A stretch of DNA of 64,000 nucleotides, taken from Acidimicrobiales bacterium (GTDB lineage Bacteria > Actinomycetota > Acidimicrobiia > Acidimicrobiales > Aldehydirespiratoraceae). The stretch is taken from assembly GCA_029263175.1 (NCBI GenBank), contig JAJCXZ010000081.1, positions 2,851 through 66,850 of the forward strand, given 5' to 3'. Position numbers and translations under genes: made by a program. The first letter of the stretch is position 1; each line of letters opens with the position of its first letter. This document shows, piece after piece, positions 9,195 through 63,679 of the stretch. Below the pieces are notes generated by a model. That model had not been told where the DNA came from. It saw nothing but the letters and a program-made list of their open reading frames with translations, and did not search any database.

Positions 9195-9204
9195 ATCGGT
9201 GACT

Positions 9205-15331: not shown

Positions 15332-15407
15332 CGGGTGTCGCACGGGTAGGCGTTCGGCGTCAGGAGTGCGGCTGAACTCTTAAGCCGCTCATCACATTCT
15401 CCTCACA

Positions 15408-15426
15408 GGTCATGTCGATCATGACC
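15408..15426. promoter_or_regulatory. perfect 7-5-7 palindrome immediately upstream of the DUF1800 start
   Basis: GGTCATG-TCGAT-CATGACC ends 2 nt before GTG 15429, in a locally AT-richer stretch. Confidence 0.25.
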
Positions 15427-15428
15427 AT

Positions 15429-16694
15429 GTGACAACGAGAGAAGACATCGCATTCCTCGCTCGACGAGCCGCCTGGGGACTCGCCCCCGGCGAGCTCGAC
15501 GCACTCGAGGCCCTCGGAACAACGGCCTACATCGATGCGCTCGTCGACCCCGACGGGGCCGGGATCGAGGCGGAGCCGTCGCCGTGGGTGGATTTCGAGT
15601 ACGTGGACGAGCAGGAGGTTCGCCAGCAGCAAGGCCTTGAGACTCTCGATCGCTGGACGACTCATCTGGTCGAAACGAAGCGTCCGTTCGAGAATGCGAT
15701 GGCGTGGTTCTGGCACGATCACTTCGCGGTCTCATTCCAGGTTGTGCAGTACCTGCCGACCCTGATCGATCACCTTGACCTGATCCGCGATCAGGGTCTT
15801 GGCGACTTCCGTGAACTGATCCGGAGCATCTCGGTCGACGGCGCCATGCTGGTTTTCCTCGACGGCGCCACGTCAACAGGAGATGCGCCGAACGAGAACT
15901 ACGGGCGTGAATTGCTGGAGCTCTACACCCTCGGCATCGGCAACTACACCGAAGACGACGTGCAGGCAGCGGCAGTGGCGCTCACCGGTTGGGTGGTGCG
16001 CCGCCGGCTCGGCTGGGAGGTTCAGTTCGTGCCTCGCCGCCACGACTCGTCCCCGCAGTCGTTCCTCGGCAAGACGGTTAATGACGTCGAGTCCGTCGTC
16101 GACGCCGCATGCTCGCATACGGCGTGCGCAGGCTTCGCCTCCGGGAAAGTCGCTCGCTTCTTCCTTGGAAACCCGAGCGACAGTGTGCTGAACGACATGG
16201 CCGAACGGTTCGCCGCCGCGGAGCTCGATCTGTCGGCGCTGGCCCGCGACGTGCTGGAGGCCGGTGCGGCCGGCGAGTCAACGCCACTGGTCGTTGCCCC
16301 GGTTCCGTGGTTCATCGGCGCGCTCAAGGCCACTGGGGCGCTGATCGAGCCTCGCGCGCAAATAGGCCTCCTCCGTGCCATGGGCCAGGTGCCAGGCTCG
16401 CCGCCGAACGTCGGCGGTTTCCCCGGCGCGTCGACATGGTTGGCGTCCTCGTCCACCGCCGCACGCTTCGGTGCGGCGAACGTGATCGCCCGCTCGACGG
16501 CCGACGATGCGGCAGCGATCACTCTGGCCGCCGACGGCGAGTGGGACGGCCTTGCCGATTTGCTACTGCGCCCTTCCGGATTCAGCGCCGCCACGCTCGC
16601 CGCACTCCGCGATCTTCCCGCCAACGTGTCCACTCGCCGGGGAGAGGGAGCCCTAGCGCTCGCCTTGGCGTCACCCGACCTGCTGATCGTCTAG
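15429..16694 (+). CDS. DUF1800 domain-containing protein
   Basis: 421-aa ORF; WFWHDHFAVS and RELLELYTLGIGNYTEDDV blocks characteristic of DUF1800; followed by its usual DUF1501 partner. Confidence 0.8.
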   Translation: MTTREDIAFLARRAAWGLAPGELDALEALGTTAYIDALVDPDGAGIEAEPSPWVDFEYVDEQEVRQQQGLETLDRWTTHLVETKRPFENAMAWFWHDHFAVSFQVVQYLPTLIDHLDLIRDQGLGDFRELIRSISVDGAMLVFLDGATSTGDAPNENYGRELLELYTLGIGNYTEDDVQAAAVALTGWVVRRRLGWEVQFVPRRHDSSPQSFLGKTVNDVESVVDAACSHTACAGFASGKVARFFLGNPSDSVLNDMAERFAAAELDLSALARDVLEAGAAGESTPLVVAPVPWFIGALKATGALIEPRAQIGLLRAMGQVPGSPPNVGGFPGASTWLASSSTAARFGAANVIARSTADDAAAITLAADGEWDGLADLLLRPSGFSAATLAALRDLPANVSTRRGEGALALALASPDLLIV

Positions 16695-16701
16695 GAGACT
16701 C

Positions 16702-18009
16702 ATGTCGAATCAATCCCTCTCTCGTCGCCGGTTCATCGGAGCCGCCGGCGCCACGGCCGGAGTCGTAGCGGTCGGCGGCGGCATATGGGCGACAACGCTG
16801 CGCGACAGCGTCGAACAGTCGGTGCTCGAAGGCATCGGCTCCACCACATCCACCACGACCACTGCCGCCGGTACTGGCGCAGCGCCATACGGCGATCGGA
16901 TCCTTGTGGTGTTGGAAATGGCCGGCGGCAACGATGCCATCAACACGCTCGTGCCCGCATCGGGGCTCTACAACGATGCCCGACGCGAGCTCGCGCTTCC
17001 GGCGAACGAGTTGGTCACACTGAGCGGGACTGACTACCGGCTGCATCCTGCGCTCACCACGCTGGCGCCGTATTGGGATGATGGTTCGATGGCCGCCGTC
17101 GCCGGTGTCGGCTTGGTCGACCAGAGCCGATCGCACTTCAAGGCGATGGACACCTGGTGGTCGGGCATCCCGGGAGCACCGTCACGGACGGGCTGGCTCG
17201 GCCGGTGGCTCGATGCCACGCTCGAAGGGCCCAACGATCCGCTACGTGCGATCGCGCTCGGGGGTGGGAGCCCGGCCCTGGTGGGGGACAAGACTCTCGC
17301 CACCGTGGTGCGAAACCCGGCCAACTTCTCGCTCAGGACCTTCCCCGACATGGATGCCGACACGTTGATCAACGCCTTCCTCGACACCGCTGAGCCGCTG
17401 GCACAGACGCCTGAGCTCGCGGCTGCACAGGCAGCGATCCCGTCAACGCTCGAGGCGGTTGAGTTGCTCGCCACCGTCTCGGGCGATATCGATGAGACCG
17501 CCGTGTTCGGCTCAGGTCCCCAGCGCGGTGGCGAGTCGGTCACCGATCTGCTGCAGACGGCTGCAGGCATCATCAACCTGGGAGTCGGGACTCGCGTCAT
17601 GACAGTTGGCATCAGCGGATTCGACACGCATGCCGATCAGCTCTCCCGGCATCACGACCTGCTCAACGATGTCGGAGCCGGCCTCGCAGGCTTCTTCGAA
17701 CGTCTCGCCGCCGATGGACATCTCGACAAGGTGATGGTGGTGACCACCAGCGAGTTTGGCCGCCGGATCCAGGAGAACGGCTCGTTCGGAACCGACCACG
17801 GCACCGGCGGTCTTCAGTTCATTTTCGGTCCGGGTGTCGTCGGCGGCCAGGTGGCCGGCGAGCTCGATCTCGCCAACCCGGTCAACGGCGACCTCCCAGT
17901 CGTGCTCGACACGCGGTCGGTCTACTCAATCGCCCTCGACTGGCTCGGTGGGCCCACGGACGAAATCCTCGGCGGACCTCATGACCGCCTCGGGCTCCTC
18001 GCTGCTTGA
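16702..18009 (+). CDS. DUF1501 domain-containing protein (Tat-exported, sulfatase/phosphatase-like fold)
   Basis: Twin-arginine signal SRRRFIGAAG; SEFGRRIQENGSFGTDHGTGG motif. Confidence 0.8.
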   Translation: MSNQSLSRRRFIGAAGATAGVVAVGGGIWATTLRDSVEQSVLEGIGSTTSTTTTAAGTGAAPYGDRILVVLEMAGGNDAINTLVPASGLYNDARRELALPANELVTLSGTDYRLHPALTTLAPYWDDGSMAAVAGVGLVDQSRSHFKAMDTWWSGIPGAPSRTGWLGRWLDATLEGPNDPLRAIALGGGSPALVGDKTLATVVRNPANFSLRTFPDMDADTLINAFLDTAEPLAQTPELAAAQAAIPSTLEAVELLATVSGDIDETAVFGSGPQRGGESVTDLLQTAAGIINLGVGTRVMTVGISGFDTHADQLSRHHDLLNDVGAGLAGFFERLAADGHLDKVMVVTTSEFGRRIQENGSFGTDHGTGGLQFIFGPGVVGGQVAGELDLANPVNGDLPVVLDTRSVYSIALDWLGGPTDEILGGPHDRLGLLAA

Positions 18010-34744: not shown

Positions 34745-34781
34745 CTAACGCACGCTGGGGTCTGTCCCCAGTGTGCGTTAG
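34745..34781. repeat. REP-like palindromic element
   Basis: CTAACGCACGCTGGGG-TCTGT-CCCCAGTGTGCGTTAG; right arm holds the TAA stop of the UGSC gene. Confidence 0.85.
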
Positions 34782-35308
34782 AGCCCGGTGAGCGACGCGA
34801 TCAGTTCGTCGACCGCTTTGTCGGCGATCTCCCGCATCTCGTCGTCGGTGCGGTCCTGGATCGGATGCTCGGTGTAGACACGAGCGGGTTCGATCCCGAG
34901 GCTCGCCGCCTGTGCTTCCGCGGCAGAAGTGAATTCGACCGTGGCCACGAACACGCCGGGGATTCCGCGGCGCTCGAGATCGCTGATGTCGTGCACACTG
35001 CACGACGTGCAACTTCCTCAATCGGCCAATGCTTCGATCACCGCATCACATGACGTGGCGATCTCATGGCGCAGGTCGACAGGGGCAGGCTTGGCAAATG
35101 TCGGCTTCGCGAAGCGCTTCACCTCGGCGCCGACAGCAGTCAGCCGCTCTTCGATCTGATCGAGGAAGACGTTGCCGCGTGCCTTGGAGATGTCGAGCAA
35201 ACCAACGGTGAGACCGTTGAGAGACTCCGGTCGAGTGACCAGTTCGCGGTGCTGAGGCTTCAGCTCTCCGGTGGGATCCAGAACGACGGTGTTCGCAGAC
35301 GTGCTCAT
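34778..35308 (-). CDS. UGSC-motif selenoprotein (in-frame TGA at 35018..35020)
   Basis: ORFs 35018..35308 and 34778..34996 are in the same frame, separated only by TGA: ...CDAVIEALAD-U-GSCTSCSVHDISDLERRG...; SECIS-like hairpin 11 nt 3' of UGA; ATG overlaps upstream stop (ATGA). Confidence 0.75.
34988..35006 (-). promoter_or_regulatory. putative bacterial SECIS hairpin (UGSC gene)
   Basis: mRNA GUCGUGCA-GUG-UGCACGAC, 19 nt, begins at nt 12 after UGA. Confidence 0.6.
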
Positions 35309-40889: not shown

Positions 40890-40969
40890 GCCAAAAGTCT
40901 CAAAGGACCTGGGCCGAAATACCTACAGGTCGCTCCTGCACCGTCCGAAACCTTCCGTGACCTGGGAGG

Positions 40970-42841
40970 GTGGAATTGGCTCCTGTAGCACCGCGGCATC
41001 GTCCGGACGATCATGAGATCCCCGACGGCATGACGCTGCTCTACGCGGATCTACCTGAACGGCCCGAACCACCGGCGGAGCGGAGTCGGGTCGAGCTCAT
41101 GCTCGGCGTCGTCGCCACGGTGGGTGCCGCCACAGTCGGCGCCCGAGTCGTGGGCGACGTGTTCGGGTCCGCCGGCGCTCCCCGCCGGTCGCACCGCGAG
41201 TATGCCGGAGCGGAAACCGTCGCTGGGTTCGTTGGCCTCGAGCGTGTCGTCGGCCCCGACCAGGCAGTGCTTCGGTTGGACGATGTGCCGATCGTCGAAT
41301 ACGCACCGATCAGCGCCGACGACGACGCCCGCTCGGTCGTGGACTCGGCCCCGCTACCGGCGCCTCTGCCCAGCACGGGCACGCCGCCCAAGTCACTACC
41401 GGTCGCTCCGGCGCCCACCGAATCCGCCCCGAAACCACCCGCCCCGACAACGAGTACCACGGTGCCCGCCAGCACAGTTCCGGCCACCACGGTCCCCTCA
41501 ACCAACCCGACGACCAGCGTTCCGCCAACCACCGCCCCGACAACTACGACGTCACCGACAACGACAGCCCCGCCCGCTGACGTTGAGCCGCCGGATGAGA
41601 TTCGCAGTCTCGCCCTGGTGGCCGGGTTCAACTTGACGTCGCAGATGGCGGGGACGATTGACGCCGTCGGCTTTGAGGGGTGGGTCGACATGCAGCTCGA
41701 CCCCTCGACGACTCCTGACCCTGTCGTCGACGCCGTGGTGGCCGATTTCGACCTGCTTGACGCCGACCCGGAACACCTTCGGGCCAACGGGCTCGGCCCC
41801 GCTGCGCTCTCGCAGACACGATGGGCCGGATTTGCCCGAACGCTGGTCGGGGAACGCCAGGTTGTGGAGACAGTGGTGTCGTTGTGGCGGGAGTTCTTCG
41901 CCGTTCGTGCACCGGAGGCCGATCTCGTCGAACTCGAGCAGGTCATCCGAAAACACGCCCTCGGCGGCTATGCCGTCCTGCTCGACGCTGTCGTCGGTTC
42001 GGCGGCCACTCGCTCTGCGTTCGCGCTCCCGGCGGAGCCGTCGGTCGAGCAGATCGTCGACAGCAACCTGGCCCGCACCGTCCTCGAACGGTTCGCCTAT
42101 GGCGATCCGGAGAGATTCGACGAAGTGGCGATTGATCGTGCAGCCGCGGCGCTCGCCGACGACCCGCTCGGGTTCGTCACCGTACTGGTGGCCGAGCCGG
42201 CGGTCGTTTCCAACATCAGTGGGCTCCTGGCCCGCCGGCTTCTCGGCGATGGGGTCGGCGCCGACGCGCTTACTGCCGCGGAGGCCGCGTTCGCGTCTTC
42301 GGGCGGTTCGGTCCGTGCGGTCGTGCGTCGGCTCCTGCTCGATGGCGTCGGGCTCGCTGACCCCAGCCGGATTCGCAGCGGCACGGGGTGGCTCACGGCA
42401 GGTCTCAGGTCGCTTGGGGCTGATGTCATGATCGGCGGCCCGTGGGACCCGGCCGATCCTGGTTCGCTGCCAGGGCTTCTCCGTCTTCTCGATGCCGAGC
42501 CTGGCACCGGCGTGATTCGTTCCGACGAGGACTGGCTCGCGCCCACGGTGGTCACCGGGCGTTGGCAGATCGCCCGCTCATTGACGGGCGAAGAGCTGAG
42601 CGACGTGTCTCTCCCGGCCGTCGATCTGCCGGCGGTGGCATCGGCGCGAGAACTCGTCGACGTGATCGCGGAATCGTGTGACGCGGTGCTCTCCGAGGCG
42701 GAGCGTGCTGCCGTCCTGCACTACCTGTCCCTGGATCCGACGCAGCCCGCTCCCGTTTTGGTCGGATCCGAGATCGCGGACGTCAGAGGCCTGATTCTCA
42801 GCTTCCCTTCATTCCAGCGTCGAGACGGAGGCGGGCAGTGA
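40970..42841 (+). CDS. DUF1800-like protein with long Pro/Thr-rich N-terminal region
   Basis: TM segment, about 60-aa P/T/S-rich tract, then DUF1800-type C-terminal domain; paired with DUF1501; start codon uncertain. Confidence 0.6.
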   Translation: MELAPVAPRHRPDDHEIPDGMTLLYADLPERPEPPAERSRVELMLGVVATVGAATVGARVVGDVFGSAGAPRRSHREYAGAETVAGFVGLERVVGPDQAVLRLDDVPIVEYAPISADDDARSVVDSAPLPAPLPSTGTPPKSLPVAPAPTESAPKPPAPTTSTTVPASTVPATTVPSTNPTTSVPPTTAPTTTTSPTTTAPPADVEPPDEIRSLALVAGFNLTSQMAGTIDAVGFEGWVDMQLDPSTTPDPVVDAVVADFDLLDADPEHLRANGLGPAALSQTRWAGFARTLVGERQVVETVVSLWREFFAVRAPEADLVELEQVIRKHALGGYAVLLDAVVGSAATRSAFALPAEPSVEQIVDSNLARTVLERFAYGDPERFDEVAIDRAAAALADDPLGFVTVLVAEPAVVSNISGLLARRLLGDGVGADALTAAEAAFASSGGSVRAVVRRLLLDGVGLADPSRIRSGTGWLTAGLRSLGADVMIGGPWDPADPGSLPGLLRLLDAEPGTGVIRSDEDWLAPTVVTGRWQIARSLTGEELSDVSLPAVDLPAVASARELVDVIAESCDAVLSEAERAAVLHYLSLDPTQPAPVLVGSEIADVRGLILSFPSFQRRDGGGQ

Positions 42842-44124: not shown

Positions 44125-44165
44125 GTTGTTACTATCTGCGTAGGAGAAATTAGTTCGGAGAACTC

Positions 44166-45566
44166 ATGACTACTGCAGAGAACCTCGACCTCGGTAAGTA
44201 CCAGCTTGGCTGGTCTGATGAAGAGGACTACGTCTTCAAGCCCAAGAAGGGCATAAACGAAGGCATCCTGCGCGAAATGTCGTGGCTCAAGGGCGAACCT
44301 CAGTGGATGCTCGACTTCCGTCTGAAGTCCTACAAGCGTTTCGGAAATCGCCCGATGCCCAGCTGGGGCGGCGACATGTCCGGCATCGATTTCAACGATA
44401 TCTACTACTACATCAAGCCCAAGGGCGGCCTGAACGACGATTGGGACGAGGTCCCGGAGTCGATCAAGAACACCTACGAGAAGCTTGGTATCCCCGAGGC
44501 CGAGCGCAAGTATCTCGCCGGTGTCACCGCTCAGTACGAGTCCGAGGTGGTGTACCACCGCAACCGCGAGGACCTCGAGCAGCAGGGTGTCCTCTTCTGC
44601 GACATGGACACGGCACTCAAGGAATACCCGCAGCTCGTCAAGCAGTACTTCGGCAAGATCATTCCGCCGAACGACAACAAGTTCTCCTCGCTCAACAGCT
44701 CCGCCTGGTCGGGCGGCTCGTTCATCTACGTGCCCCCGGGTGTGCAGGTCGAGATGCCGCTGCAGGCCTACTTCCGCATCAACGCGGAGAACATGGGCCA
44801 GTTCGAGCGCACCCTGATCATTGCCGATGAGGGTTCCCAGGTTCACTACATCGAAGGTTGCTCGGCGCCGACCTACACCTCCGACTCGCTGCATTCCGCG
44901 GTGGTCGAAATCGTGGTCAAGCCGTCCGCCCGAGTCACCTACACGACCATCCAGAACTGGTCCGACAACGTCTACAACCTGGTCACCAAGCGGGCCTGGG
45001 TCGAGGCCGAGGGTCACATGGAGTGGATCGACGGCAACATCGGCTCGAAGCTCACGATGAAGTACCCGGCCATTGTGCTCGCCGGTCCGAAGGCTTCGGG
45101 CGAGGTTCTCTCGGTCGCCTACGCCGGCGCCGGTCAGCACCAGGACACCGGTGCCAAGATGACTCACGCCGCGCCGGAGACCACGTCGAAGATCGTGTCG
45201 AAGTCGATCTCCAAGGATGGCGGCCGCACGTCATACCGCGGCCTCGTGCGAGTCGAAGACAACGCCTATGGCTGCAAGAGCCACGTTCAGTGCGATGCGC
45301 TCATCCTCGACGAGGATTCCATCTCCGACACCTATCCGTACATGGAGGTCGGTTCCGGCGACGCAATCATCGGTCACGAGGCCACCGTGTCTCGCGTGGC
45401 CGACGAGCAGCTCTTCTATCTCCAGAGCCGCGGTCTCACCGAGGAGCAGGCGATGAGCATGGTCGTCAACGGCTTCATCGAGCCCATCACGAAGACACTG
45501 CCGATGGAATACGCCGTCGAATGGTCCCGCCTGATCGAACTCCAAATGGAGGGTTCGGTCGGGTAA
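44166..45566 (+). CDS. sufB: Fe-S cluster assembly protein SufB
   Basis: 466-aa ORF with highly conserved SufB blocks ([38 protein letters not shown]). Confidence 0.95.
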
Positions 45567-48129: not shown

Positions 48130-48179
48130 CCCCGAATCCGTCGTTGGGAATTAGCACTGTCCAGATAGGATAAATCCCC

Positions 48180-49463
48180 GTGTCATCGACGTTTTCCCCC
48201 GATGCCGCACGAGCGATCGATGGGCCGTCGTGGCTGGTCGATCGACGTGTTGCGGCTGCAGAAGCGCTGAGCGAACGCGCTGTTCCCACGGTTGCCGACG
48301 AAGAGTGGCGGTACAGCCCGATCGCGGAGCTCGACCTCGACACCTTCGCGCCGTCAACCACGTTCGGCGATGCGCCCATGGCGCGCCTCGATGTGGAACC
48401 GGCTGCCACCGTCCGCTGTGTCAATGGCAAGGTCGTGTCAATCGAAGTCGACGCCCTGCTCGTCGAGCAGGGCGTGTTCGTCGGCCTGCTGGTCGATCAT
48501 GCCGACGGCGAAGCAGTGCTCGGTTCCGTCTCCGCCGACGCCGGCGACTACTTCACCGAGCTCAACGACGCGTTCACGCCCCACCCGGTTTTCATCAACG
48601 TTCCGAACGGTGTCACCGTCGATCGTCCGATCGTCATCACCCATCATGCCGCCGGCGACCACGGCGCCACGTTTTCCCGCCTCGTCGTCCGGGTCGGCAA
48701 GAACGCCCAGGCGACTGTCCTCGACCAGTACAGCAGTGACGACGGTGATGTCGTTCTGGCCTGCCCAGTAGTCGAACTCGACGTTGCACAAGCGGGCCGC
48801 CTCGGCTATCTCAACATCCAGGAGCTCGGCGACAGCACATGGCAGATCGCATCGCAGGTCGCTCGCGTCGAGCGCGACGCCACCATCTCCGCCGGAACCG
48901 CCGCCTTCGGTGGCGCCTATGCCCGCAGCCGTGCCGACACCCGCCTTGTCGGGCGCGGTGCCCACGGTGACCTTCAGGCCCTGTACTTCGGTGACGAGGG
49001 CCAGACGCTCGACTTCCGCACCTATCAGGACCATGTCGCTCCCGACACCACGTCCAACCTGCTCTACAAGGGTGTCGTGGCCGGCAAGTCTCGCAGTATC
49101 TACACCGGTCTCATCCGCGTCCGTCCCGACGCACGCGGCACCAACGCCTATCAGACGAACCGCAATCTCAAGTTGGGCGATGATGCCTGGGCCGAGTCCG
49201 TGCCGAACCTGGAGATCGAGAACAACGACGTCAAGTGCAGCCATGCCTCCACGGTGAGTCCGGTCGACGACGACCAGAGGTTCTACCTGGAGAGCCGTGG
49301 CGTGCCCACTGGCGAAGCAGAGCGTCTCATCGTGGCCGGCTTCCTCGACGAGGTCGTGACTGAACTTGCTGTCCCTTCGGCGGCTCAGGGCCTGCGCCGC
49401 TCGGTTGCCGTCAAGCTGGCCGCTCAGCGCTTCGCTGAATACGGAGTGGAGGACAGCGCATGA
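48180..49463 (+). CDS. sufD: Fe-S cluster assembly protein SufD
   Basis: GTG start; SufB/SufD beta-helix family with NRNLKLGDDAWAESVPNLEIENNDVKCSHAST block. Confidence 0.9.
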   Translation: MSSTFSPDAARAIDGPSWLVDRRVAAAEALSERAVPTVADEEWRYSPIAELDLDTFAPSTTFGDAPMARLDVEPAATVRCVNGKVVSIEVDALLVEQGVFVGLLVDHADGEAVLGSVSADAGDYFTELNDAFTPHPVFINVPNGVTVDRPIVITHHAAGDHGATFSRLVVRVGKNAQATVLDQYSSDDGDVVLACPVVELDVAQAGRLGYLNIQELGDSTWQIASQVARVERDATISAGTAAFGGAYARSRADTRLVGRGAHGDLQALYFGDEGQTLDFRTYQDHVAPDTTSNLLYKGVVAGKSRSIYTGLIRVRPDARGTNAYQTNRNLKLGDDAWAESVPNLEIENNDVKCSHASTVSPVDDDQRFYLESRGVPTGEAERLIVAGFLDEVVTELAVPSAAQGLRRSVAVKLAAQRFAEYGVEDSA

Positions 49464-49795
49464 GCGTTCATGACCTGTTCGCCATCGACGAGATCGATCC
49501 CGGGACCGCCCGCAAGGTGGTGCTCGAGGGTCGCGAAATCGCCCTGATCCGGCTCGGCGACGATGTCTACGCCCTCGGCGACACCTGCAGCCACGACGAT
49601 GTCTCGCTCTCCGAAGGCTTCGTCGAAGAGGATGAATGCGCCATCGAGTGCTCAAAGCACGGCGCCCTGTTCGACCTGAAGACCGGTGAACCGTTGAGCC
49701 TTCCCGCTGTTCGCGCAGTACCGGTGTACGCCGTCGCTGTCGTCGACGGCCGGGTAGAGCTCACCATCGAACAAGCGGCGAAGGAGTCACAATGA
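49460..49795 (+). CDS. Rieske (2Fe-2S) ferredoxin-like protein embedded in the suf operon
   Basis: CSHDDVSL...CSKHGALF (CxH...CxxH) Rieske ligands; position between sufD and sufC as in many actinobacteria. Confidence 0.85.
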   Translation: MSVHDLFAIDEIDPGTARKVVLEGREIALIRLGDDVYALGDTCSHDDVSLSEGFVEEDECAIECSKHGALFDLKTGEPLSLPAVRAVPVYAVAVVDGRVELTIEQAAKESQ

Positions 49796-50580
49796 GCGAG
49801 CTCATCATCGAAGGCCTGTGCGCTTCTGTCGAAGGCAAGGAAATCCTCAAGGGCGTCGACCTCGTCGTGAAGTCCGGTGAGGTCGCCGCGGTCATGGGCC
49901 CCAACGGCTCGGGCAAGTCCACGCTTTCTCACGTGATTGCCGGTCGACCCGGCTATGAGGTCACCGGTGGGTCAGTCCGTATCGACGACCTCGAGCTGCT
50001 CGATTTGCCGACGTGGAAACGCGCCGAAGCCGGCCTCTTCCTCGCCATGCAGTACCCGACCGAGGTTCCCGGTGTCGCGCTGAGAGACCTGTTGCGTGCC
50101 TCCGCCCGCACCTCCGACGACCCCGAGGAGATCGAGAGTCGGATGCAGGCCGAGGCCGAGCGCATCGGATTCGGTGCCCAGTTCCTCGAGCGCCCACTCA
50201 ACGTCGACCTTTCCGGCGGCGAGAAGAAGCGCAACGAGACGCTTCAGCTCGGGGTGTTGCGACCCGCCTTTGCGATCCTCGATGAGCTCGACTCCGGTCT
50301 CGACGTCGATGCATTGCGCATCGTGAGCGCTCGAATCGAGCAGGCGACCGAGGAAGACGGACTCGGCGTTCTGGCCATCACCCACTACTCGCGCCTCTTC
50401 GATGAGCTCCGCCCTGACACAGTCCACGTGTTCGCCGACGGTCGTATTCGGGAATCCGGTGGACCCAGGCTCGCCACGGAGCTCGAAGAGACCGGTTACG
50501 AACGATGGGTTCAGCCTGCCGCAGCCACCAAGCCCTCCCCGGCATTGTCCGACGACCCGTTCGCCGATCCCCTCGGTTGA
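49792..50580 (+). CDS. sufC: Fe-S cluster assembly ATPase SufC (copy 1)
   Basis: GPNGSGKST, LSGGEKKRNE, AILDELDSGLD, ITHY; has an about 20-aa Pro/Ala-rich C-terminal tail. Confidence 0.9.
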   Translation: MSELIIEGLCASVEGKEILKGVDLVVKSGEVAAVMGPNGSGKSTLSHVIAGRPGYEVTGGSVRIDDLELLDLPTWKRAEAGLFLAMQYPTEVPGVALRDLLRASARTSDDPEEIESRMQAEAERIGFGAQFLERPLNVDLSGGEKKRNETLQLGVLRPAFAILDELDSGLDVDALRIVSARIEQATEEDGLGVLAITHYSRLFDELRPDTVHVFADGRIRESGGPRLATELEETGYERWVQPAAATKPSPALSDDPFADPLG

Positions 50581-54981: not shown

Positions 54982-55070
54982 ACCGCAGTGATGCGTCTGA
55001 CAGTGAGCTGACAGCGATCTGAGGAGGTGGTGGATCAGTGTTCGCTTCACACCCATCAGAGGAGAAACTA

Positions 55071-56027
55071 ATGACCAACGCAAGCCCCACCAGACTTCCC
55101 CAGTTCTCGGGGAAGACGATGCTGACTGATGGCGGCCTCGAGACAGTCCTCATCTTCGACATGGGTTTCGACCTGCCTGAATTCGCGGCCTTTCCCCTGC
55201 TCGATTCTGCGCGCGGACGCAGCGGTCTCGACTCCTACTACGCAGACTTCATCGACGTTGCCATCGCCCATCGGGTTGGCATCGTTCTCGAGACACCCAC
55301 CTGGCGAGCGTCTGCGGACTGGGGCAGGAAGCTCGGCTACGACGCCGATGACCTCAACCGTGTCAACCGTGATGCAGTGACGTTCATCCGCGGGATCGCC
55401 GATCGCCGGACCACCGACACAACCCCGATCGTGGTGAGCGGATCCGTCGGGCCACGCGGCGATGGGTACGTGCCTGGTGAGCAGATGACAATTGCCGAGG
55501 CCGCGGCCTTTCATGCTCCGCAGATGGCCAGCCTCGCAGATGCGGGTGCCGACATGGTGTCGATCATCACGGTGCCGTACATGGAGGAGGGCATCGGGGC
55601 TGCGAAGGCGGCCGCTTCGATCGGTATCCCGATCGTCGTCGCCTTCACGGTCGAGACGGACGGCCGCCTCCCGACCGGACAGGCACTCGGCGCAGCCATC
55701 GAGGAAGCGGACCAGGCGACCGCCGGCTATCCGGCGGCGTATGGCATCAACTGCGCCCATCCGGACCACTTCGCCGAAACGATTGCCGCGGGGGGAGCTT
55801 GGCGTGATCGCATCGGGTTGATACGCGCGAACGCTTCGCGAATGAGTCACGAGGAGCTGGACAACGCAGAGGAGCTCGATGCAGGCGATCCCGACGAACT
55901 CGGATCGCAGTACCGCGAGCTTCGTGAGGTCCTTCCGTCATTGACGGTCATGGGAGGTTGCTGCGGGACCGACGCCCGTCACGTTGCCGCAATCGGAGCT
56001 GCATGCCTCGACCCGGTTGTCAGGTGA
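55071..56027 (+). CDS. homocysteine S-methyltransferase family protein
   Basis: Start ATG 55071 with AGAGGAG SD; TDGGLET, INCAHP and MGGCCGT zinc-ligand motifs. Confidence 0.85.
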   Translation: MTNASPTRLPQFSGKTMLTDGGLETVLIFDMGFDLPEFAAFPLLDSARGRSGLDSYYADFIDVAIAHRVGIVLETPTWRASADWGRKLGYDADDLNRVNRDAVTFIRGIADRRTTDTTPIVVSGSVGPRGDGYVPGEQMTIAEAAAFHAPQMASLADAGADMVSIITVPYMEEGIGAAKAAASIGIPIVVAFTVETDGRLPTGQALGAAIEEADQATAGYPAAYGINCAHPDHFAETIAAGGAWRDRIGLIRANASRMSHEELDNAEELDAGDPDELGSQYRELREVLPSLTVMGGCCGTDARHVAAIGAACLDPVVR

Positions 56028-59828: not shown

Positions 59829-60245
59829 GGGATCGCCGATCTTGACCGAACCACCGCGGAGCACGCGGCAGATGACACCGGCTCGCCGGCGAAGCGCGTC
59901 TTTGGCTCCCCGTCCGAGTCCGTCTTCGAGAAGCTTGCACGGCGCCGCGATACGCACCACTTCGAGTTCGACCCCCGCGATCGACCAGCGATGACCGGGT
60001 GTGGTGGGGACCGGGCCGACATCGATGGTGATGTTTCGTCGCGTTCGCAGCGGATCGATCGTCGAGCCGAACATCTCGGTTGCCTCAGCCAACTCTGATG
60101 CGCTCTGCACGCTCACCTGGCGGTGGCGCGTCCCGTGATAGCGGTCACCGATGATTCCGGCCGCCATCTCGATCTCGATTCGGTCGACGGCGACCATGCC
60201 GAGCTTCGCCGCCTTCGCGATCTGAAGGCCCGAGACGCGAGGCAT
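59817..60245 (-). CDS. MOSC domain-containing protein
   Basis: Start ATG 60245 overlapping sufU stop; GDRYHG, RRNITI and conserved Cys (AAPCKLL) of MOSC domains. Confidence 0.75.
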   Translation of the reverse strand: MPRVSGLQIAKAAKLGMVAVDRIEIEMAAGIIGDRYHGTRHRQVSVQSASELAEATEMFGSTIDPLRTRRNITIDVGPVPTTPGHRWSIAGVELEVVRIAAPCKLLEDGLGRGAKDALRRRAGVICRVLRGGSVKIGDPVEL

Positions 60246-60742
60246 CAGGTGATCGGGGAGGCCTCGTCGAGGGCCTGGGCCAGGGTGTTCCAGCCGAGCG
60301 TGGCGCACTTGATGCGCACTGGGAACTTCACAACACCCTTGAGCGCTTCGAGGTCGCCGAGCTTCGTGTCGCCGGAGTCGATGCTGAGTTCGATGCCCAT
60401 GTCGGCTTCGCTGCCGTCGCCACCGATCTCACCCTCGTGGATCGACATCAGGCCCTTGAACGCGCCGATCAGGCGACGGGCGTAGGGGACGGTCTGACCC
60501 TTGACCGCAGCTGACATCATCGATGCCGAGGACTGACTGATCGAGCAACCCTGACCGCCGATGGCGATGTCGGTGATGAGGCCGTCGTCATCGACATCGA
60601 TGTAGACGATGATCTCGTCACCACAGAGCGGGTTGAAGCCCTCGGTCTTCACCGCGGGCGGCGACTCCAGCTCGCCGCGGTTTCGTGGCGAGCGGTAGTG
60701 ATCGAGAATGATCTCGCGGTAGAGGTCTTCGAGGCCGGGCAT
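60245..60742 (-). CDS. sufU: SUF-system Fe-S scaffold/sulfur acceptor SufU (NifU/IscU-like)
   Basis: NPLCGDE, GQGCSISQSSASMM, IKCATLGW cysteine motifs. Confidence 0.9.
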   Translation of the reverse strand: MPGLEDLYREIILDHYRSPRNRGELESPPAVKTEGFNPLCGDEIIVYIDVDDDGLITDIAIGGQGCSISQSSASMMSAAVKGQTVPYARRLIGAFKGLMSIHEGEIGGDGSEADMGIELSIDSGDTKLGDLEALKGVVKFPVRIKCATLGWNTLAQALDEASPIT

Positions 60743-60757
60743 AAGGGTTGCTGGTCC

Positions 60758-61987
60758 TTAGAACGAGAAGATGTCGGACGCCTCGGTGAGCGTCTCAGCG
60801 AGCAGATCGATGTCGGATTCGTCGTTGTAGATGTAGAGCGACACGCGGCTGGTGGCGGGCACTCCGAGAGTCCGCAGCAACGGCTTGGCACAGTGGTGGC
60901 CGGCCCGCACACAGATGCCCTTCTGGTCGAGGACCTGGGCGACATCGTGGGGATGGACCTGGTCGTAGACGAACGACAACACGCCGCCGCGCTCGGCCGG
61001 CTCGGACGGGCCATGAATGGTGATCTTGTCGCCGTGACGCTCTTTGAGAGTGCGCAGGGCGTAGGCGGTCAGTTCGACTTCGTGCTTGCGCACTTCGTCC
61101 ATGCCGATCTCGTTGAGGTAGTCGATCGCGGCGGCAAGACCGACAGCTTCAGCGACCATTGGAGTGCCGGCTTCGAACTTCCACGGGACTTCGTTGGTGG
61201 TGAAGCCTTCCTTGGTGACGTTGAGGATCATCTCGCCGCCGCCGAGGAATGGAGGCATGGCCTCGAGGATCTCCTCACGAGCCCACAACACACCGATACC
61301 CATCGGGCCGAGCATCTTGTGGCCGGTGAAGATGAGGAAGTCGGCGCCCATCGCTTGCACGTCGGTTGCCAGGTGGGGCACGTATTGGCTGCCGTCCACC
61401 GCGATCAATGCCCCGTGGGCGTGCGCGGCTTCGGCGAGGCGATGGATCGGGTTGAGCGTGCCGAGCACATTGCTCATGGCAGTGATCGACAGGAGCTTGG
61501 CGCCGTCGAGCAATTCGTCGAGATTGCTGAGATCGAGGTGGCCATCGTCCTTGACGGAGATCCAGCGGAGCTCGAAACCCTTCTCGGAAGCAAGCATGTG
61601 CCAGGGGACGATGTTGGCGTGATGTTCCATCTCGGAGATGACGACCGCATCGCCTTCGCCGAGGTTCGCTCCACCCCATGAGCGAGCCACCAGGTTCAGG
61701 GCCTCGGTGGCGTTCTTGGTGAAGACGACTTCTATTGAAGACGGAGCGTTGATGAAAGCGGCGACCTTCTGGCGGGCGCCTTCGATTGCGTCGGTTGCCT
61801 TGACCGCGATGTCGTACGAACCACGGTGCACATTGGCGTTGATGGTCTCGTAGTAGTTCGACATGGCGTCGATTACCCGCTGCGGTTTTTGTGACGTGTT
61901 GCCCGAGTCGAGATAGACCAGGGGTGCGCCGTTCGCGGTCTGCTTGAGCACGGGGAAATCGGCCTTGATCGCCGCCCAGTCGGTCAT
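60758..61987 (-). CDS. sufS: cysteine desulfurase SufS (group II)
   Basis: HHANIVPW, FTGHKMLGPMG (PLP lysine), RAGHHCA active-site loop. Confidence 0.95.
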   Translation of the reverse strand: MTDWAAIKADFPVLKQTANGAPLVYLDSGNTSQKPQRVIDAMSNYYETINANVHRGSYDIAVKATDAIEGARQKVAAFINAPSSIEVVFTKNATEALNLVARSWGGANLGEGDAVVISEMEHHANIVPWHMLASEKGFELRWISVKDDGHLDLSNLDELLDGAKLLSITAMSNVLGTLNPIHRLAEAAHAHGALIAVDGSQYVPHLATDVQAMGADFLIFTGHKMLGPMGIGVLWAREEILEAMPPFLGGGEMILNVTKEGFTTNEVPWKFEAGTPMVAEAVGLAAAIDYLNEIGMDEVRKHEVELTAYALRTLKERHGDKITIHGPSEPAERGGVLSFVYDQVHPHDVAQVLDQKGICVRAGHHCAKPLLRTLGVPATSRVSLYIYNDESDIDLLAETLTEASDIFSF

Positions 61988-62745
61988 GCCGTGACTCCGA
62001 AGCGTTCGTAGCCCTCCCGCTCCAGCTGCTTCGCGAGTTCGGCGTCGCCGGATTCGACGATTCGACCGTCGATGATCACGTGAACCTGGTCGGGCTGCAG
62101 CTCATCGAGGAGGCGCTGGTAGTGGGTGATGGCGAGGACGCCCAGTTCAGGACGATCGCGGCGGACTTCCTGCACACCGCGGCTGACAACCCGAAGGGCA
62201 TCGATGTCGAGGCCGGAGTCGGTCTCGTCGAGGATGGCCATCTCGGGTTCGAGGATTGCCATCTGGAGGATTTCGTTGCGCTTCTTCTCGCCGCCGGAGA
62301 AGCCCTCGTTGAGGTAGCGATCGGCGAAGGATGCGTCCATCTCCAAACGTTCCATCCACTCCATGATGGCGAGACGCAGCTCGAGCACCGACAGGTCGAT
62401 GCCCTTGCGGGCCGACAGTGATTGGCGCAGGAAGTTGAGAACAGAGACGCCGGGGATCTCCTGGGGGTACTGGAAGGCCAGGAAGATGCCGGCTTTGCCG
62501 CGCACATCGGCGGGCCAGTCGGTGACGTCCTCACCACGGAAGTGGATCGAGCCCGCGGTGACCTCGTACTCGGGGCTGCCGAGGAGGACGCTGGCAAGCG
62601 TGGACTTCCCGCTGCCGTTGGGGCCCATAAGGGCGTGGACTTCACCGATGCCGACCGTGAGATCGACACCTTTCAGGATCTCGTCGCCGCCTTCGACAGT
62701 GCTGGCGTGCAGACCCTTGATTTCGAACAGGGGAGCCTCGGACAT
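61984..62745 (-). CDS. sufC: Fe-S cluster assembly ATPase SufC (copy 2)
   Basis: GPNGSGKST, FSGGEKKRNE, AILDETDSGLD, ITHY; by eye roughly half the residues match copy 1. Confidence 0.9.
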   Translation of the reverse strand: MSEAPLFEIKGLHASTVEGGDEILKGVDLTVGIGEVHALMGPNGSGKSTLASVLLGSPEYEVTAGSIHFRGEDVTDWPADVRGKAGIFLAFQYPQEIPGVSVLNFLRQSLSARKGIDLSVLELRLAIMEWMERLEMDASFADRYLNEGFSGGEKKRNEILQMAILEPEMAILDETDSGLDIDALRVVSRGVQEVRRDRPELGVLAITHYQRLLDELQPDQVHVIIDGRIVESGDAELAKQLEREGYERFGVTA

Positions 62746-62791: not shown

Positions 62792-63679
62792 CTAATTCAT
62801 CGAGGTCGGCGTGGCGTACCGTGCGGGTCGACGAGCCGTGTAGAGAAATCGGGCCAGGAGTCCGTCGTCGAGGCCGGCGAGAGTGCGTCGTCGGCTGTCG
62901 AGTCGATCGTCGTACATCTCGTCGCCCATGGACGTCCGTAGCGACCCTTCGTGCCGTGCGCCGGCGTCGATCCAACGCTGTTGCGTTGCCCGATACTCGG
63001 CAGTCACGTCGGTGGCGCTGACGCTCTCAAGCCCCGCGGATCGCATCATGCTCTGGTAGCTGGTTCGCACCGCACCGCTGCCGGGCCCTGCCGCGTTGGC
63101 GCGCCGACGATCGTTTCCGGAGAGGCCAGGTGTGGGCTGGATGGTGAAGAACGCCACGCGTCCGCCCGGCTTGAGAATCCCTCTGCATGCACTCAACACG
63201 GAGTGCTTGCGGCGAATTCAACACAAGAGGTCGCCGTGAGTAACCGCATCAACCGACCCACGACGAATCGGAATCAACTCGGCATCGCCCCGTATCGCAG
63301 CCGATGGGGTCGCGAGCCTGTCCTCTCTCAACCGGGCGCTTGTAGTGGCGCAGCCTTCTGAGACCGGATCGATGCTGATCACTGCACAGCCTGTGGTCTT
63401 CGCGAGATGCAGGCCGGGCCAGCCGCAGCCCGAGCCCAGGTCGACGAGCACCTTGCCCGGTCCGAGCTGAAGCAGATCGCTCAGCAGGTCGGCCTGCGCC
63501 ATCGTGGTGTAGCCGTTGGCCCGATAGTCGCTGCCGAGTGTTTCGAACTCGGTCGCCATCTCCGCCGCCGTCCCGATGAGGCTGTATCGCTCGGCGAAAC
63601 GCTCGGGATCATCCGCGGCGAACGTTCGCACTACGCCGCCGGGTTTGCGAGCAACGGCCAAGGGCGATGCCGTTCCCAT
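62792..63679 (-). CDS. class I SAM-dependent methyltransferase, candidate selenoprotein (C-U dipeptide, in-frame TGA at 63218..63220)
   Basis: ORFs 63218..63679 and 62792..63199 share a frame. Joined product reads VLVDLGSGCGWPG...SVDAVTHGDLLC-U-IRRKHSVLSACRGILKPGGRVAFFTI, restoring motif I through post-II of one methyltransferase. SECIS-like hairpin at 11 nt. Start uncertain. Confidence 0.55.
63185..63210 (-). promoter_or_regulatory. putative bacterial SECIS hairpin (methyltransferase gene)
   Basis: mRNA GCA-A-GCACUC-CGUGUU-GAGUGC-A-UGC; upper stem begins at nt 12 after UGA. Confidence 0.5.

What the first reader, a model, noticed from the sequence alone, without database searches (positions are those of the whole stretch)
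62792..63679. SAM methyltransferase split by one in-frame TGA directly after a Cys (C-U), with a SECIS-type hairpin: candidate unusual selenoprotein
Two adjacent minus-strand ORFs (63218..63679 and 62792..63199) are in the same frame and separated only by TGA 63218..63220. Neither half is a complete methyltransferase. Joined, they give one normal class I fold: motif I VLVDLGSGCGWPG, then SVDAVTHGDLLC-U-IRRKHSVLSACRGILKPGGRVAFF, the usual 'FDxV...L.H...RVLKPGG' region. The TGA falls where many methyltransferases have the L-x-H residue, and it follows a Cys, creating a C-U pair like redox-active selenenylsulfide motifs. Starting 11 nt 3' of the UGA the mRNA folds GCACUC-CGUGUU-GAGUGC, extendable by GCA/UGC. 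This is the same geometry as the two better-supported selenoprotein genes in this window. I do not recognise a described Sec-containing methyltransferase of this layout. The gene sits 47 bp upstream of sufC2-sufS-sufU-MOSC.
Basis: partly seen in the sequence, partly recalled or inferred. Interest (0 to 1): 0.8.

Follow-up and report, generated by a model that had tools for sequence, protein, structure and literature searches.

The report
Selenocysteine methyltransferase with Cys-Sec active site
The "broken" methyltransferase gene is intact: its in-frame TGA encodes selenocysteine at the enzyme's catalytic position. It belongs to a widespread bacterial selenoprotein family that I could not find in current inventories.

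Summary
The minus-strand gene 62792..63631 is one class I SAM methyltransferase interrupted only by TGA 63218..63220, directly after a TGT Cys codon.

Evidence that the TGA encodes selenocysteine:
- 81 related loci from independent metagenomes and MAGs carry TGA in this two-residue dyad. Most are Acidimicrobiia; some are other Actinomycetota, Chloroflexota and Dormiibacterota.
- Eleven fetched loci and at least 115 database proteins carry Cys-Cys there.
- The reading frame continues for 130-137 codons after the TGA, with dN/dS of about 0.1.
- A 6-bp hairpin starts 11 nt after the UGA. It is 99% paired across 75 distinct sequences, shows compensatory changes, and is frozen at synonymous sites.
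- A curated UGSC selenoprotein gene in the same window has the same 11-nt geometry.

Profile alignment places Sec138 on the catalytic His of phosphoethanolamine, RebM and MitM methyltransferases.

Not shown: the substrate and the Sec machinery. I did not find selA, selB, selC or selD among the window features I scanned.

The family reaches no NCBIfam cutoff and is absent from a 2026 inventory of 119 selenoprotein families. I could not compare it directly with the recently named MduS family.

Verdict: a real selenoprotein and a new member of a known kind.

The parts
62792..63631 (-). Selenoprotein methyltransferase gene: 279 residues counted from GTG 63631, stop TAG 62794..62792. An in-frame alternative start is ATG 63679.
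   Evidence: Translation gives one frame with a single internal TGA. Pfam Methyltransf_11 spans residues 63-161 across the TGA. AlphaFold2 gives one compact class I fold, pLDDT 89.8. Orthologues are 44-80% identical over both halves.
63218..63220 (-). UGA codon read as selenocysteine (Sec138).
   Evidence: TGA is present in this dyad in 81 fetched loci. Homologues have Cys in 11 loci and at least 115 database proteins. The downstream frame is under purifying selection, dN/dS 0.09-0.15. The column aligns with the catalytic His of PMT, RebM and MitM.
63221..63223 (-). Cys137 codon (TGT), the first residue of the Cys-Sec dyad.
   Evidence: Invariant Cys in alignment A2. The codon is TGT in 76 of 77 Sec-form genes, whereas other Cys codons in the same genes are TGC 189: TGT 58. 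In four loci this position is itself TGA (UU or UC variants).
63207..63217 (-). 11-nt spacer between the UGA and the SECIS hairpin.
   Evidence: The spacing is identical in all 75 distinct Sec-form sequences; the alignment has no gaps. The UGSC gene of this window has the same 11-nt spacing.
63189..63206 (-). SECIS-type hairpin: 5' arm GCACUC 63206..63201, loop CGUGUU 63200..63195, 3' arm GAGUGC 63194..63189.
   Evidence: This is the only helix in the RNAalifold consensus of 75 sequences. 99.1% of cells are paired, 2 of 6 pairs show changes on both sides, and 0 of 500 shuffles reach the observed covariation. Third-codon-position entropy is 0 across codons +5..+8, against 1.4-1.9 bits outside. 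Cys forms keep all six pairs in only 2 of 9 sequences.
63413..63451 (-). SAM-binding motif I (residues 61-73, VLVDLGSGCGWPG).
   Evidence: G66, G68, G70, W71, P72 and G73 are invariant in alignment A2. The motif lies within the Pfam Methyltransf_11 match.
34778..35308 (-). Separate UGSC-family selenoprotein gene (TGA 35020..35018). Listed as evidence that this organism decodes Sec.
   Evidence: NCBIfam NF041046 'UGSC family (seleno)protein' scores 156.9 bits, above the cutoff of 125. Translation shows ...EALAD-*-GSCTSC. An 8-bp hairpin with a GUG loop starts 11 nt after the UGA.

Best explanation
The locus is one functional gene for a selenocysteine-containing class I SAM-dependent methyltransferase.

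Recoding (inferred from comparative evidence). The ribosome reads UGA 63220..63218 as Sec, presumably through SelB and Sec-tRNA. Recoding is directed by a minimal bacterial SECIS: a 6-bp hairpin with loop CGUG(U/C)U, starting 11 nt after the UGA and lying inside the coding sequence for K-(L/H/R)-S-V-L-(R/S).

Position in the enzyme (shown by alignment). The product carries a vicinal Cys137-Sec138 dyad on the loop after strand beta4. Sec138 sits where related small-molecule methyltransferases have their catalytic His, next to the SAM methyl group. These relatives are the phosphoethanolamine N-methyltransferases, RebM/AtmM and MitM.

Function (inferred, low confidence). A thiol-selenol pair in place of a His base suggests that the enzyme binds and methylates a soft substrate. 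Candidates are a metalloid or a reactive sulfur or selenium species, such as arsenite, selenide, sulfide or a persulfide. The pair could hold such a substrate by coordination or as a covalent Se-S adduct.
For: Selenoprotein identity:
- Six database orthologues end exactly at the Cys, and their DNA shows TGT-TGA followed by 130-137 in-frame homologous codons.
- A scan of species-representative genomes found 237 relatives. Of the 80 loci kept, 73 carry TGA in the dyad and 7 have Cys-Cys.
- dN/dS after the TGA is 0.09-0.15, the same as before it.
- The hairpin is 99.1% paired in 75 distinct sequences. The third pair occurs as UA, AU, GC, UG and GU, and the basal pair as GC, AU and GU.
- Synonymous sites inside the hairpin are frozen, and the rare Arg codon AGA is used in 67 of 80 sequences.
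- A curated UGSC selenoprotein gene in the same window has the same 11-nt spacing.

Enzyme identity:
- Pfam Methyltransf_11 and an AlphaFold2 model with pLDDT 89.8.
- Top Foldseek PDB hits are PMTs, AtmM/RebM, TleD, MitM and SDMT, with E down to 1e-18 and TM about 0.7.
- The profile alignment puts C137/U138 on RebM H140/H141 and on the His of PMT 'DTILH' and MitM 'ESIIH'.
- The nearest outgroups have C-H, L-Y or Q-Y at the dyad.
- CC, CU, UC and UU variants all occur, so both positions need a chalcogen.

Substrate hint:
- 12 of 46 loci with full flanks have an ArsM-like or related methyltransferase gene within 4 kb.
- That ArsM-like neighbour is itself a selenoprotein (DLWTG-U-IAGG) in 10 loci.
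- Several loci share the gene order arsR/rhodanese, MBL plus two rhodanese domains, MFS, arsM-like(U), CU-methyltransferase.
- In the window the gene sits next to sufC-sufS-sufU.
Against: - No Sec machinery genes (selA, selB, selC, selD) were found in the window, so Sec decoding is inferred from the UGSC gene only.
- There is no protein-level evidence.
- The gene neighbourhood is weakly conserved: the best neighbour is present in about a quarter of loci, and the suf linkage occurs in only 4 loci. The substrate inference is therefore soft.
- Structural neighbours are O-, N- and C-methyltransferases of small organic molecules, not ArsM. An ordinary organic substrate remains possible.
- The single-sequence folding energy of the hairpin region is not exceptional (z = -0.85).
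- No Rfam SECIS model matches.
- Cys forms keep a degraded version of the hairpin, with 78% of cells paired. Part of the pairing potential may therefore come from the amino-acid sequence.
Confidence: 0.9

Rival explanations
1. Pseudogene: a methyltransferase gene inactivated by a nonsense mutation.
For: Gene callers split it into two ORFs. Public protein sets hold only the truncated N-terminal halves.
Against: The same TGA occurs in 75 or more distinct sequences from several phyla. The downstream half is under purifying selection, dN/dS about 0.1. A conserved hairpin with frozen synonymous sites follows the TGA. Cys occupies the column in homologues.
Confidence: 0.01
2. UGA is read through or reassigned to a standard amino acid such as Trp, Gly or Cys, without selenocysteine.
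For: Two database proteins show C-W at the dyad, so some pipeline translated TGA as Trp. Sec machinery was not seen in the window.
Against: Most genes in the window end in TGA, so UGA is a normal stop here. The aligned residue in homologues is Cys, never Trp or Gly in genuine full-length genes. A position-specific hairpin 11 nt downstream is the signature of SelB-dependent recoding. The same window holds a curated UGSC selenoprotein gene.
Confidence: 0.03
3. It is a real selenoenzyme, but an ordinary small-molecule O-, N- or C-methyltransferase. Sec138 would simply replace His as the catalytic base or nucleophile, or would form a redox switch with Cys137. It would not bind metalloids or reactive sulfur.
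For: The closest structures are PMT, RebM/AtmM, TleD, MitM, SDMT and GPP C-methyltransferase. The nearest outgroup has C-H at the dyad. Most loci show no conserved metal- or sulfur-related neighbour.
Against: A selenolate or thiolate is a poor base for O/N deprotonation but a good soft ligand or nucleophile. Both dyad positions must be Cys or Sec, as the CC, CU, UC and UU variants show, which fits chelation or a dichalcogenide better than a single base. There is recurrent linkage to an ArsM-like selenoprotein, rhodanese-domain proteins and ArsR or MerR regulators.
Confidence: 0.3
4. It is a member of an already named selenoprotein methyltransferase family: ArsM-type, MduS, or the methyltransferase/UXPK-star family.
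For: There are weak NCBIfam matches to DVU_1556 family MTase (48 bits), ArsM PRK11873 (37 bits), ArsM_AhpD_UU (34 bits) and MTase_UXPK_star (26 bits). Methyltransferase selenoproteins are known (PMC13188914; PMC2375036).
Against: All these scores are far below the curated cutoffs of 155, 263, 510 and 460. The known families have Sec in a UxxG or CxxU motif, several with 2-3 Sec residues. Here there is one Sec in a C-U dyad at a different position: the ArsM-type U aligns with the lid loop of this protein. The window protein shares only 28% identity with the ArsM-like selenoprotein that neighbours its relatives in other loci.
Confidence: 0.1

Closest known systems
Arsenite methyltransferase (ArsM) selenoproteins, including the ArsM/AhpD, ArsM/DUF2284 and methyltransferase/UXPK-star forms (NCBIfam NF008823, NF041537, NF041536, NF047649; review PMC13188914)
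   Same: Both are class I SAM methyltransferases in which Sec replaces an active-site Cys. Both have Cys-containing homologues. An ArsM-like selenoprotein gene lies next to this family's gene in about 10 loci.
   Different: Identity is only 28% over the Rossmann core, and NCBIfam scores are far below cutoff. In ArsM-type proteins Sec is in a UxxG motif about 50 residues further on, aligned with the lid loop here. This family has a vicinal C-U dyad right after beta4 and lacks the three-Cys As(III) site. Its structural neighbours are PMT and RebM, not ArsM.
Phosphoethanolamine N-methyltransferases and RebM/AtmM/MitM-type small-molecule methyltransferases (PDB 5wp4/5wp5, 3uj7, 3bus, 6uv6, 8zc8)
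   Same: They share the fold, including the C-terminal lid (TM about 0.7, E 1e-16 to 1e-18), and match at profile level (E 1e-20 to 1e-24). The active-site Asp is conserved: D134 aligns with the D of 'D-x-I-L-H'.
   Different: Their catalytic His (HH in RebM) is replaced by Sec, preceded by Cys. No member of that clade is reported as a selenoprotein in the inventories read.
Escherichia coli fdhF-type bacterial SECIS
   Same: Both are a stem-loop inside the coding sequence immediately 3' of the UGA, with 11 nt between the UGA and the SelB-binding upper hairpin and a G-U in the apical loop. The fdhF details are from my own knowledge of the literature, not tested here.
   Different: This hairpin is only a 6-bp perfect stem with a 6-nt loop, has no bulged U, and has no conserved lower stem. 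No Rfam SECIS model matches it.
C-U / C-C dyad selenoproteins of metal and organometal biochemistry (SaoL, SaoC, HgcA, MbdU; Haft & Gwadz 2023 and Haft & Tolstoy 2025, as listed in PMC13188914) and the GCUG redox centre of thioredoxin reductase
   Same: All have an adjacent Cys-Sec pair, interchangeable with Cys-Cys in homologues.
   Different: The folds and contexts are unrelated. Here the dyad sits in a SAM methyltransferase active site. Whether it chelates a substrate or cycles as a selenenylsulfide is unknown.
H2S/methanethiol S-methyltransferases MddH, MddM1 and MddM2 (PMC11445057, PMC12904073)
   Same: They are class I SAM methyltransferases common in Actinomycetota and marine bacteria that detoxify reactive sulfur. 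This is one plausible substrate class, given the rhodanese and persulfide-dioxygenase-like neighbours.
   Different: MddM1 and MddM2 are about 205-210 aa proteins of the UbiG and UbiE families with no Sec reported.

Membership tests
Bacterial selenoprotein (UGA decoded as Sec) | In-frame UGA conserved at the same column in orthologues, with an intact conserved ORF on both sides | tested here: met
   81 loci have TGA in the dyad, with 130-137 homologous codons downstream. dN/dS downstream is 0.09-0.15.
Bacterial selenoprotein (UGA decoded as Sec) | Homologues with Cys aligned to the UGA (Sec/Cys pair) | tested here: met
   LCC occurs in 14 full-length hits, 11 fetched loci and 115 of 170 proteins held.
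Bacterial selenoprotein (UGA decoded as Sec) | bSECIS stem-loop immediately downstream of the UGA, conserved in the TGA forms | tested here: met
   A 6-bp helix starts 11 nt after the UGA, is 99.1% paired, and has 2 pairs with compensatory changes. Synonymous sites are frozen. The helix is degraded in Cys forms.
Bacterial selenoprotein (UGA decoded as Sec) | selA, selB, selC and selD present in the genome | tested here: inconclusive
   No tRNA-Sec was found in the window. No SelA, SelB or SelD domains were found among about 30 ORFs scanned. The rest of the genome is not available. Indirect support comes from the UGSC selenoprotein gene in the window.
Bacterial selenoprotein (UGA decoded as Sec) | Selenium in the polypeptide (75Se labelling or mass spectrometry) | not testable with these tools
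   This needs an experiment.
Class I SAM-dependent methyltransferase (Pfam Methyltransf_11 / _25) | Profile score above the gathering threshold, GxGxG motif I, acidic residue at the end of beta2, Rossmann-like fold | tested here: met
   PF08241 scores 48.3 bits against a cutoff of 21.2, and PF13649 scores 39.9 against 27. G66, G68, G70 and D88 are invariant. The AlphaFold2 model matches methyltransferase structures.
Arsenite methyltransferase ArsM (NF008823) and its selenoprotein forms | Family profile score at or above the curated cutoff | tested here: not met
   PRK11873 scores 36.9 against 263, ArsM_AhpD_UU 34.4 against 510, and ArsM_DUF2284_UU 16.5 against 575.
Arsenite methyltransferase ArsM (NF008823) and its selenoprotein forms | Sec or Cys in the UxxG motif, plus the N-terminal and 'SNC' arsenic-binding Cys residues (own knowledge of ArsM; motif as listed in PMC13188914) | tested here: not met
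   The conserved Cys/Sec residues are only C82, C137 and U138. The ArsM-type U aligns with the lid loop AAGPGSG.
DVU_1556 family methyltransferase (NF045667) | Profile score at or above the cutoff of 155 | tested here: not met
   It scores 48.4 bits. This is the best NCBIfam hit but far below the cutoff.
[quoted passage not shown] | Profile score at or above the cutoff of 460, with two Sec residues (UxxG and a C-terminal UXPK) | tested here: not met
   It scores 26 bits. There is one Sec and no C-terminal UXPK.
Methyltransferase domain-containing selenoprotein MduS (Haft & Tolstoy 2025; WP_332845911.1) | CxxU motif and 2 Sec residues, as listed in PMC13188914 | tested here: inconclusive
   The motif here is C-U with one Sec (two in the rare UU variants), which does not fit the listed description. 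The MduS sequence and paper were not available, so no direct alignment was made.
PMT / RebM / MitM-like small-molecule methyltransferases | Shared fold with lid domain, and a catalytic His after beta4 | tested here: inconclusive
   The fold and profile similarity are met. The catalytic His is replaced by Sec or Cys. It is a divergent relative, not a functional member.

The most novel reading that the evidence does not exclude
This is an undescribed and widespread selenoenzyme family in which a Cys-Sec dyad (or Sec-Sec, Sec-Cys) replaces the catalytic His of a small-molecule SAM methyltransferase. It would carry out a kind of methyl transfer not yet described. One possibility is capture of sulfane sulfur, selenium or a metalloid on the selenol as a covalent or chelated adduct, followed by methylation and release. 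It often works in tandem with an adjacent ArsM-like selenoprotein. In some lineages two consecutive UGA codons are decoded from a single minimal SECIS.
Probability: 0.3. Interest if true: 0.8.

Novelty: new member of a known kind. Interest (0 to 1): 0.62.

Why it matters
**Annotation.** Gene callers and public protein sets split this gene. They hold dozens of N-terminal fragments that all end at the same Cys, and a few entries with TGA mistranslated as Trp. Recognising the family would correct the annotation in many Acidimicrobiia and other Actinomycetota, Chloroflexota and related MAGs.

**Selenoprotein biology.** Nearly all known bacterial selenoproteins are redox proteins. A selenol sitting at the methyl-transfer site of a small-molecule methyltransferase is a different use of Sec. 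The family is common in aerobic marine and soil Actinomycetota.

**Possible role.** Some loci link the gene to an ArsM-like selenoprotein, rhodanese-domain proteins and efflux genes. This points to a possible role in methylating arsenic, selenium or sulfur species, which is relevant to the cycling of volatile metalloids and sulfur gases.

**Recoding.** The nearly invariant minimal SECIS, the strict U before the UGA, and the natural UGA-UGA and shifted-UGA variants give a natural test set for the spacing rules of SelB-dependent recoding.

Tried and rejected
- **Other in-frame TGA pairs in the window.** The junctions at 9697, 14162 and 50578 are simply adjacent genes that share a frame: APH-like/YbaK, CBS/cystathionine synthase, and SufC/pterin dehydratase. 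They are not selenoproteins.
- **The second 'better-supported' selenoprotein.** Two scans found only UGSC.
- **Rfam.** There was no match at gathering thresholds and none at E <= 10 around the site.
- **tRNA-Sec.** ARAGORN found none in the window or in 40 related loci.
- **Sec machinery.** Pfam scans of about 30 window ORFs found none.
- **Haft & Tolstoy 2025 (PMC12013261).** The library does not hold this paper, so MduS could not be compared.
- **Representative search.** I repeated it with database proteins only.
- **A third metal-binding Cys.** I considered the lid-loop Cys (GPPxC) of some Cys forms as a third ligand. It is present in fewer than 30% of sequences, so I dropped the idea.
- **'Cys forms lack the hairpin'.** I first thought so, but counting showed a degraded and partly retained helix, and I corrected the statement.
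- **The GCA/UGC stem extension.** It is not conserved.
- **Gene neighbourhood.** It gives no strongly conserved partner.
Full report
**1. The observation**

On the minus strand, the ORFs 63218..63679 and 62792..63199 share one frame. They are separated only by TGA 63220..63218, which follows a TGT Cys codon.

Read through, the gene gives a 279-residue protein counted from GTG 63631. That GTG overlaps the TAG of the upstream amidase gene by one base. An in-frame ATG at 63679 is an alternative start.

Pfam Methyltransf_11 matches residues 63-161, so it spans the TGA at residue 138 (48.3 bits, cutoff 21.2). Neither half is a complete domain.

The hairpin GCACUC-CGUGUU-GAGUGC lies at 63206..63189, 11 nt after the UGA. 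Its folding energy in this one sequence is not exceptional (z = -0.85). The case therefore rests on comparison with other sequences.

**2. Orthologues carry the same TGA, and homologues carry Cys**

A protein search with the joined sequence returned 21 hits. Six of them, 44-78% identical, end exactly at ...L/M-C. Fourteen full-length hits read L-C-C at that point.

I fetched the DNA of the six truncated hits. All have TGT-TGA at that column. All continue in frame for 130-137 codons that are homologous to the window's C-terminal half.

A scan of one genome per species found 237 relatives, of which 80 loci were kept. Of these 80 loci:
- 69 have C-U (TGT-TGA).
- 3 independent MAGs have U-U (TGA-TGA): L047, L054 and L076.
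- 1 Dehalococcoidia MAG has U-C (TGA-TGC): L090.
- 7 have C-C.

Carriers are mostly Acidimicrobiia (Ilumatobacter, Acidimicrobiaceae). Others are Streptosporangiaceae, Nocardiopsaceae, Chloroflexota, Dormiibacterota and Thermoanaerobaculia bins.

Between the window and its closest relatives, dN/dS is 0.09-0.15 downstream of the TGA. This equals the value for the upstream half. The downstream part is therefore translated and under selection.

An exhaustive profile search of 1.84 billion representative proteins found 202 clusters at E <= 1e-30. Among the 170 proteins held:
- 115 have C-C.
- 29 end at the Cys.
- 2 show C-W, which is TGA mistranslated as Trp.
- The nearest outgroups have C-H, L-Y or Q-Y.

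In a rough NJ tree, the TGA forms spread over most of the family. There are two all-Cys clades and about nine scattered Cys forms. This suggests repeated Sec/Cys exchange. The tree is only approximate.

**3. The recoding signal**

RNAalifold on 75 distinct TGA-form sequences predicts a single helix. It has 6 bp, starts 11 nt after the UGA, and has the loop CGUG(C/U)U.
- 99.1% of cells are paired.
- The third pair occurs as U-A (62 sequences), U-G (8), A-U (2), G-C (1) and G-U (1).
- The basal pair occurs as G-C, A-U and G-U.
- No shuffle out of 500 reaches the observed covariation, and slid controls collapse.

In the window the A-U version is made by His (CAC) paired with Ser (AGU). Relatives use Leu (CUC) with Arg (AGA), or Arg (CGC) with Ser (AGC). 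The amino acids change in step to keep the RNA pair.

Third-codon-position entropy is 0 for codons +5 to +8 (CTC TCC GTG CTG). The rare Arg codon AGA is used in 67 of 80 sequences. Equally conserved residues outside the hairpin show 1.4-1.9 bits.

The Cys codon before the UGA is TGT in 76 of 77 genes. Other Cys codons in the same genes are TGC 189: TGT 58. This is a nucleotide-level preference for U before the UGA.

Cys-form genes keep only a degraded helix. 78% of cells are paired, 2 of 9 sequences keep all six pairs, and the loops vary.

No Rfam family matches.

**4. Does the organism decode Sec?**

The window has no tRNA-Sec. No SelA, SelB or SelD domains appear among about 30 ORFs scanned.

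The window does contain a gene at 34778..35308 (minus strand) with an in-frame TGA at 35020..35018. It scores 156.9 bits against NCBIfam 'UGSC family (seleno)protein', above the cutoff of 125. Its 8-bp hairpin with a GUG loop also starts 11 nt after the UGA.

A 2026 preprint reports complete Sec machinery in another order of Acidimicrobiia. Sec decoding is thus well supported, but only indirectly.

**5. What the protein is**

AlphaFold2 gives a confident single-domain model with pLDDT 89.8.

The best Foldseek PDB matches have E down to 1e-18 and TM about 0.7. They are:
- plant, nematode and Plasmodium phosphoethanolamine N-methyltransferases
- AtmM/RebM
- TleD
- MitM
- sarcosine/dimethylglycine methyltransferase
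- GPP C-methyltransferase

ArsM is not among the 50 best matches shown.

A profile search against PDB sequences aligns D134-x-x-C137-U138 as follows:
- with D-T-I-L-H of the plant PMTs
- with E-S-L-H-H of RebM
- with E-S-I-I-H of MitM

In those enzymes this His is the catalytic base; this is my own knowledge. The PDB list itself contains H132A and D128A active-site mutants of PfPMT. Sec138 therefore sits at the catalytic position next to the SAM methyl group, and D134 matches the conserved active-site Asp.

Across the family the conserved Cys/Sec residues are C82, C137 and U138. C69 in motif I is Cys in 68% of Sec forms and never in Cys forms.

**6. Context and likely function**

The neighbourhood is only weakly conserved.

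The most frequent neighbour is an ArsM-like methyltransferase. It scores 193 bits against PRK11873, below the cutoff of 263. This gene, or a related methyltransferase that clustered with it, lies within 4 kb in 12 of 46 loci that have full flanks.

This neighbour lacks two of the three arsenic-binding Cys residues. It is itself a selenoprotein (DLWTG-U-IAGG) in 10 TGA-form loci, and has Cys in Cys-form loci.

Several loci share a gene order. These are L059, L083 and L060, and partly L070, L074, L078 and L082. The order is:
- an arsR-type regulator with a rhodanese domain
- a metallo-beta-lactamase protein with two rhodanese domains (persulfide-dioxygenase-like)
- an MFS transporter
- the ArsM-like selenoprotein
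- sometimes a glyoxalase-like gene
- the C-U methyltransferase

Cys-form loci often have MerR and ECF sigma regulators nearby.

In the window and three close relatives the gene sits just upstream of sufC-sufS-sufU. These genes form a persulfide-generating system.

The dyad needs a chalcogen at both positions, since CC, CU, UC and UU all occur. Together these facts favour a soft substrate bound by, or covalently attached to, the thiol-selenol pair and then methylated. Candidates are a metalloid or a reactive sulfur or selenium species. This is inference, and I rate it at roughly 0.4. An ordinary organic acceptor, with Sec acting as base or nucleophile, remains a serious rival.

**7. Comparison with what is known**

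A 2026 review lists 119 prokaryotic selenoprotein families. The methyltransferase entries are:
- ArsM (UxxG motif)
- MduS (CxxU motif, 2 Sec)
- methyltransferase/UXPK-star
- ArsM/DUF2284
- ArsM/AhpD
- the unrelated Ada-type DNA methyltransferase

None has a single Sec in a C-U dyad after beta4.

In NCBIfam release 20 the best hits are all far below cutoff:
- DVU_1556 family methyltransferase: 48 bits against 155.
- ArsM: 37 bits against 263.
- The ArsM and UXPK-star selenoprotein models: 17-34 bits against 460-575.

The window protein is 28% identical to the ArsM-like selenoprotein that neighbours its relatives in other loci. The two Sec positions do not coincide.

The family is not mentioned in the main texts of several other papers I checked:
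- the Sargasso Sea and GOS surveys
- Peng 2016
- the deep-Sep and BSepDB papers
- the 2022 review

The algal 'methyltransferase' selenoprotein of 2007 is described only as a homologue of a bacterial one.

I could not read Haft & Tolstoy 2025 or obtain the MduS sequence. A small chance remains that the family has already been named.

**8. Verdict**

The finding is real.

The recoding mechanism is ordinary. The protein family, and the position of Sec at the catalytic site of a small-molecule methyltransferase, appear to be undescribed. I class it as a new member of a known kind, with moderate to high interest. The substrate and chemistry remain open.

Noticed in passing
L047:10388-10453, L054:4330-4395, L076 (dyad near 4758): Three independent Acidimicrobiales MAGs have two consecutive TGA codons (a U-U dyad) in this methyltransferase. 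The hairpin is unchanged, so one SECIS would serve UGAs at 14 and 11 nt. The downstream ORF is intact.
   Followed up: partly
L090:10376-10441: A Dehalococcoidia MAG has the dyad as TGA-TGC (U-C). The Sec codon is shifted one codon upstream while the hairpin stays in place, giving a spacing of 14 nt.
   Followed up: partly
L017, L051, L059, L060, L070, L074, L078, L082, L083, L084 (for example L059, about 8790-9580): An ArsM-like methyltransferase gene close to the C-U methyltransferase gene is itself a selenoprotein (DLWTG-U-IAGG). In eight of the ten loci it lies upstream on the same strand. It has VISNGV in place of the arsenic-binding SNC motif. Cys-form loci carry the Cys version of this neighbour.
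   Followed up: partly
window 34778..35308 (-): A UGSC-family selenoprotein gene with TGA at 35020..35018 scores above the NCBIfam cutoff. An 8-bp hairpin with a GUG loop starts 11 nt after the UGA.
   Followed up: yes
codon before the UGA in 77 Sec-form genes (window 63221..63223): The Cys codon preceding the UGA is TGT in 76 of 77 genes, although TGC dominates elsewhere in the same genes (189:58). This points to selection for U immediately 5' of the Sec codon.
   Followed up: partly
proteins P0034 and P0106: Public protein entries show C-W at the dyad followed by KLSVLR. These are most likely Sec-form genes translated with a code that reads TGA as Trp.
   Followed up: no
window 55023..56027 (+): A homocysteine S-methyltransferase family gene (PF02574) lies about 7 kb from the finding. 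Members of that family use a zinc site with a vicinal Cys-Cys to activate thiol or selenol substrates (own knowledge).
   Followed up: no
A similar regulator lies near the Cys-form gene in L008.
   Followed up: partly
window 44154..45566, 48174..49463, 49690..50580 and 60245..62745: The window holds two sets of suf genes: SufB/D-like genes with a first SufC, and a second SufC-SufS-SufU set directly downstream of the selenoprotein gene.
   Followed up: partly
window 15384..18009 and 40961..42841: The window has a DUF1800/DUF1501 gene pair and a second DUF1800 gene, of unknown function.
   Followed up: no
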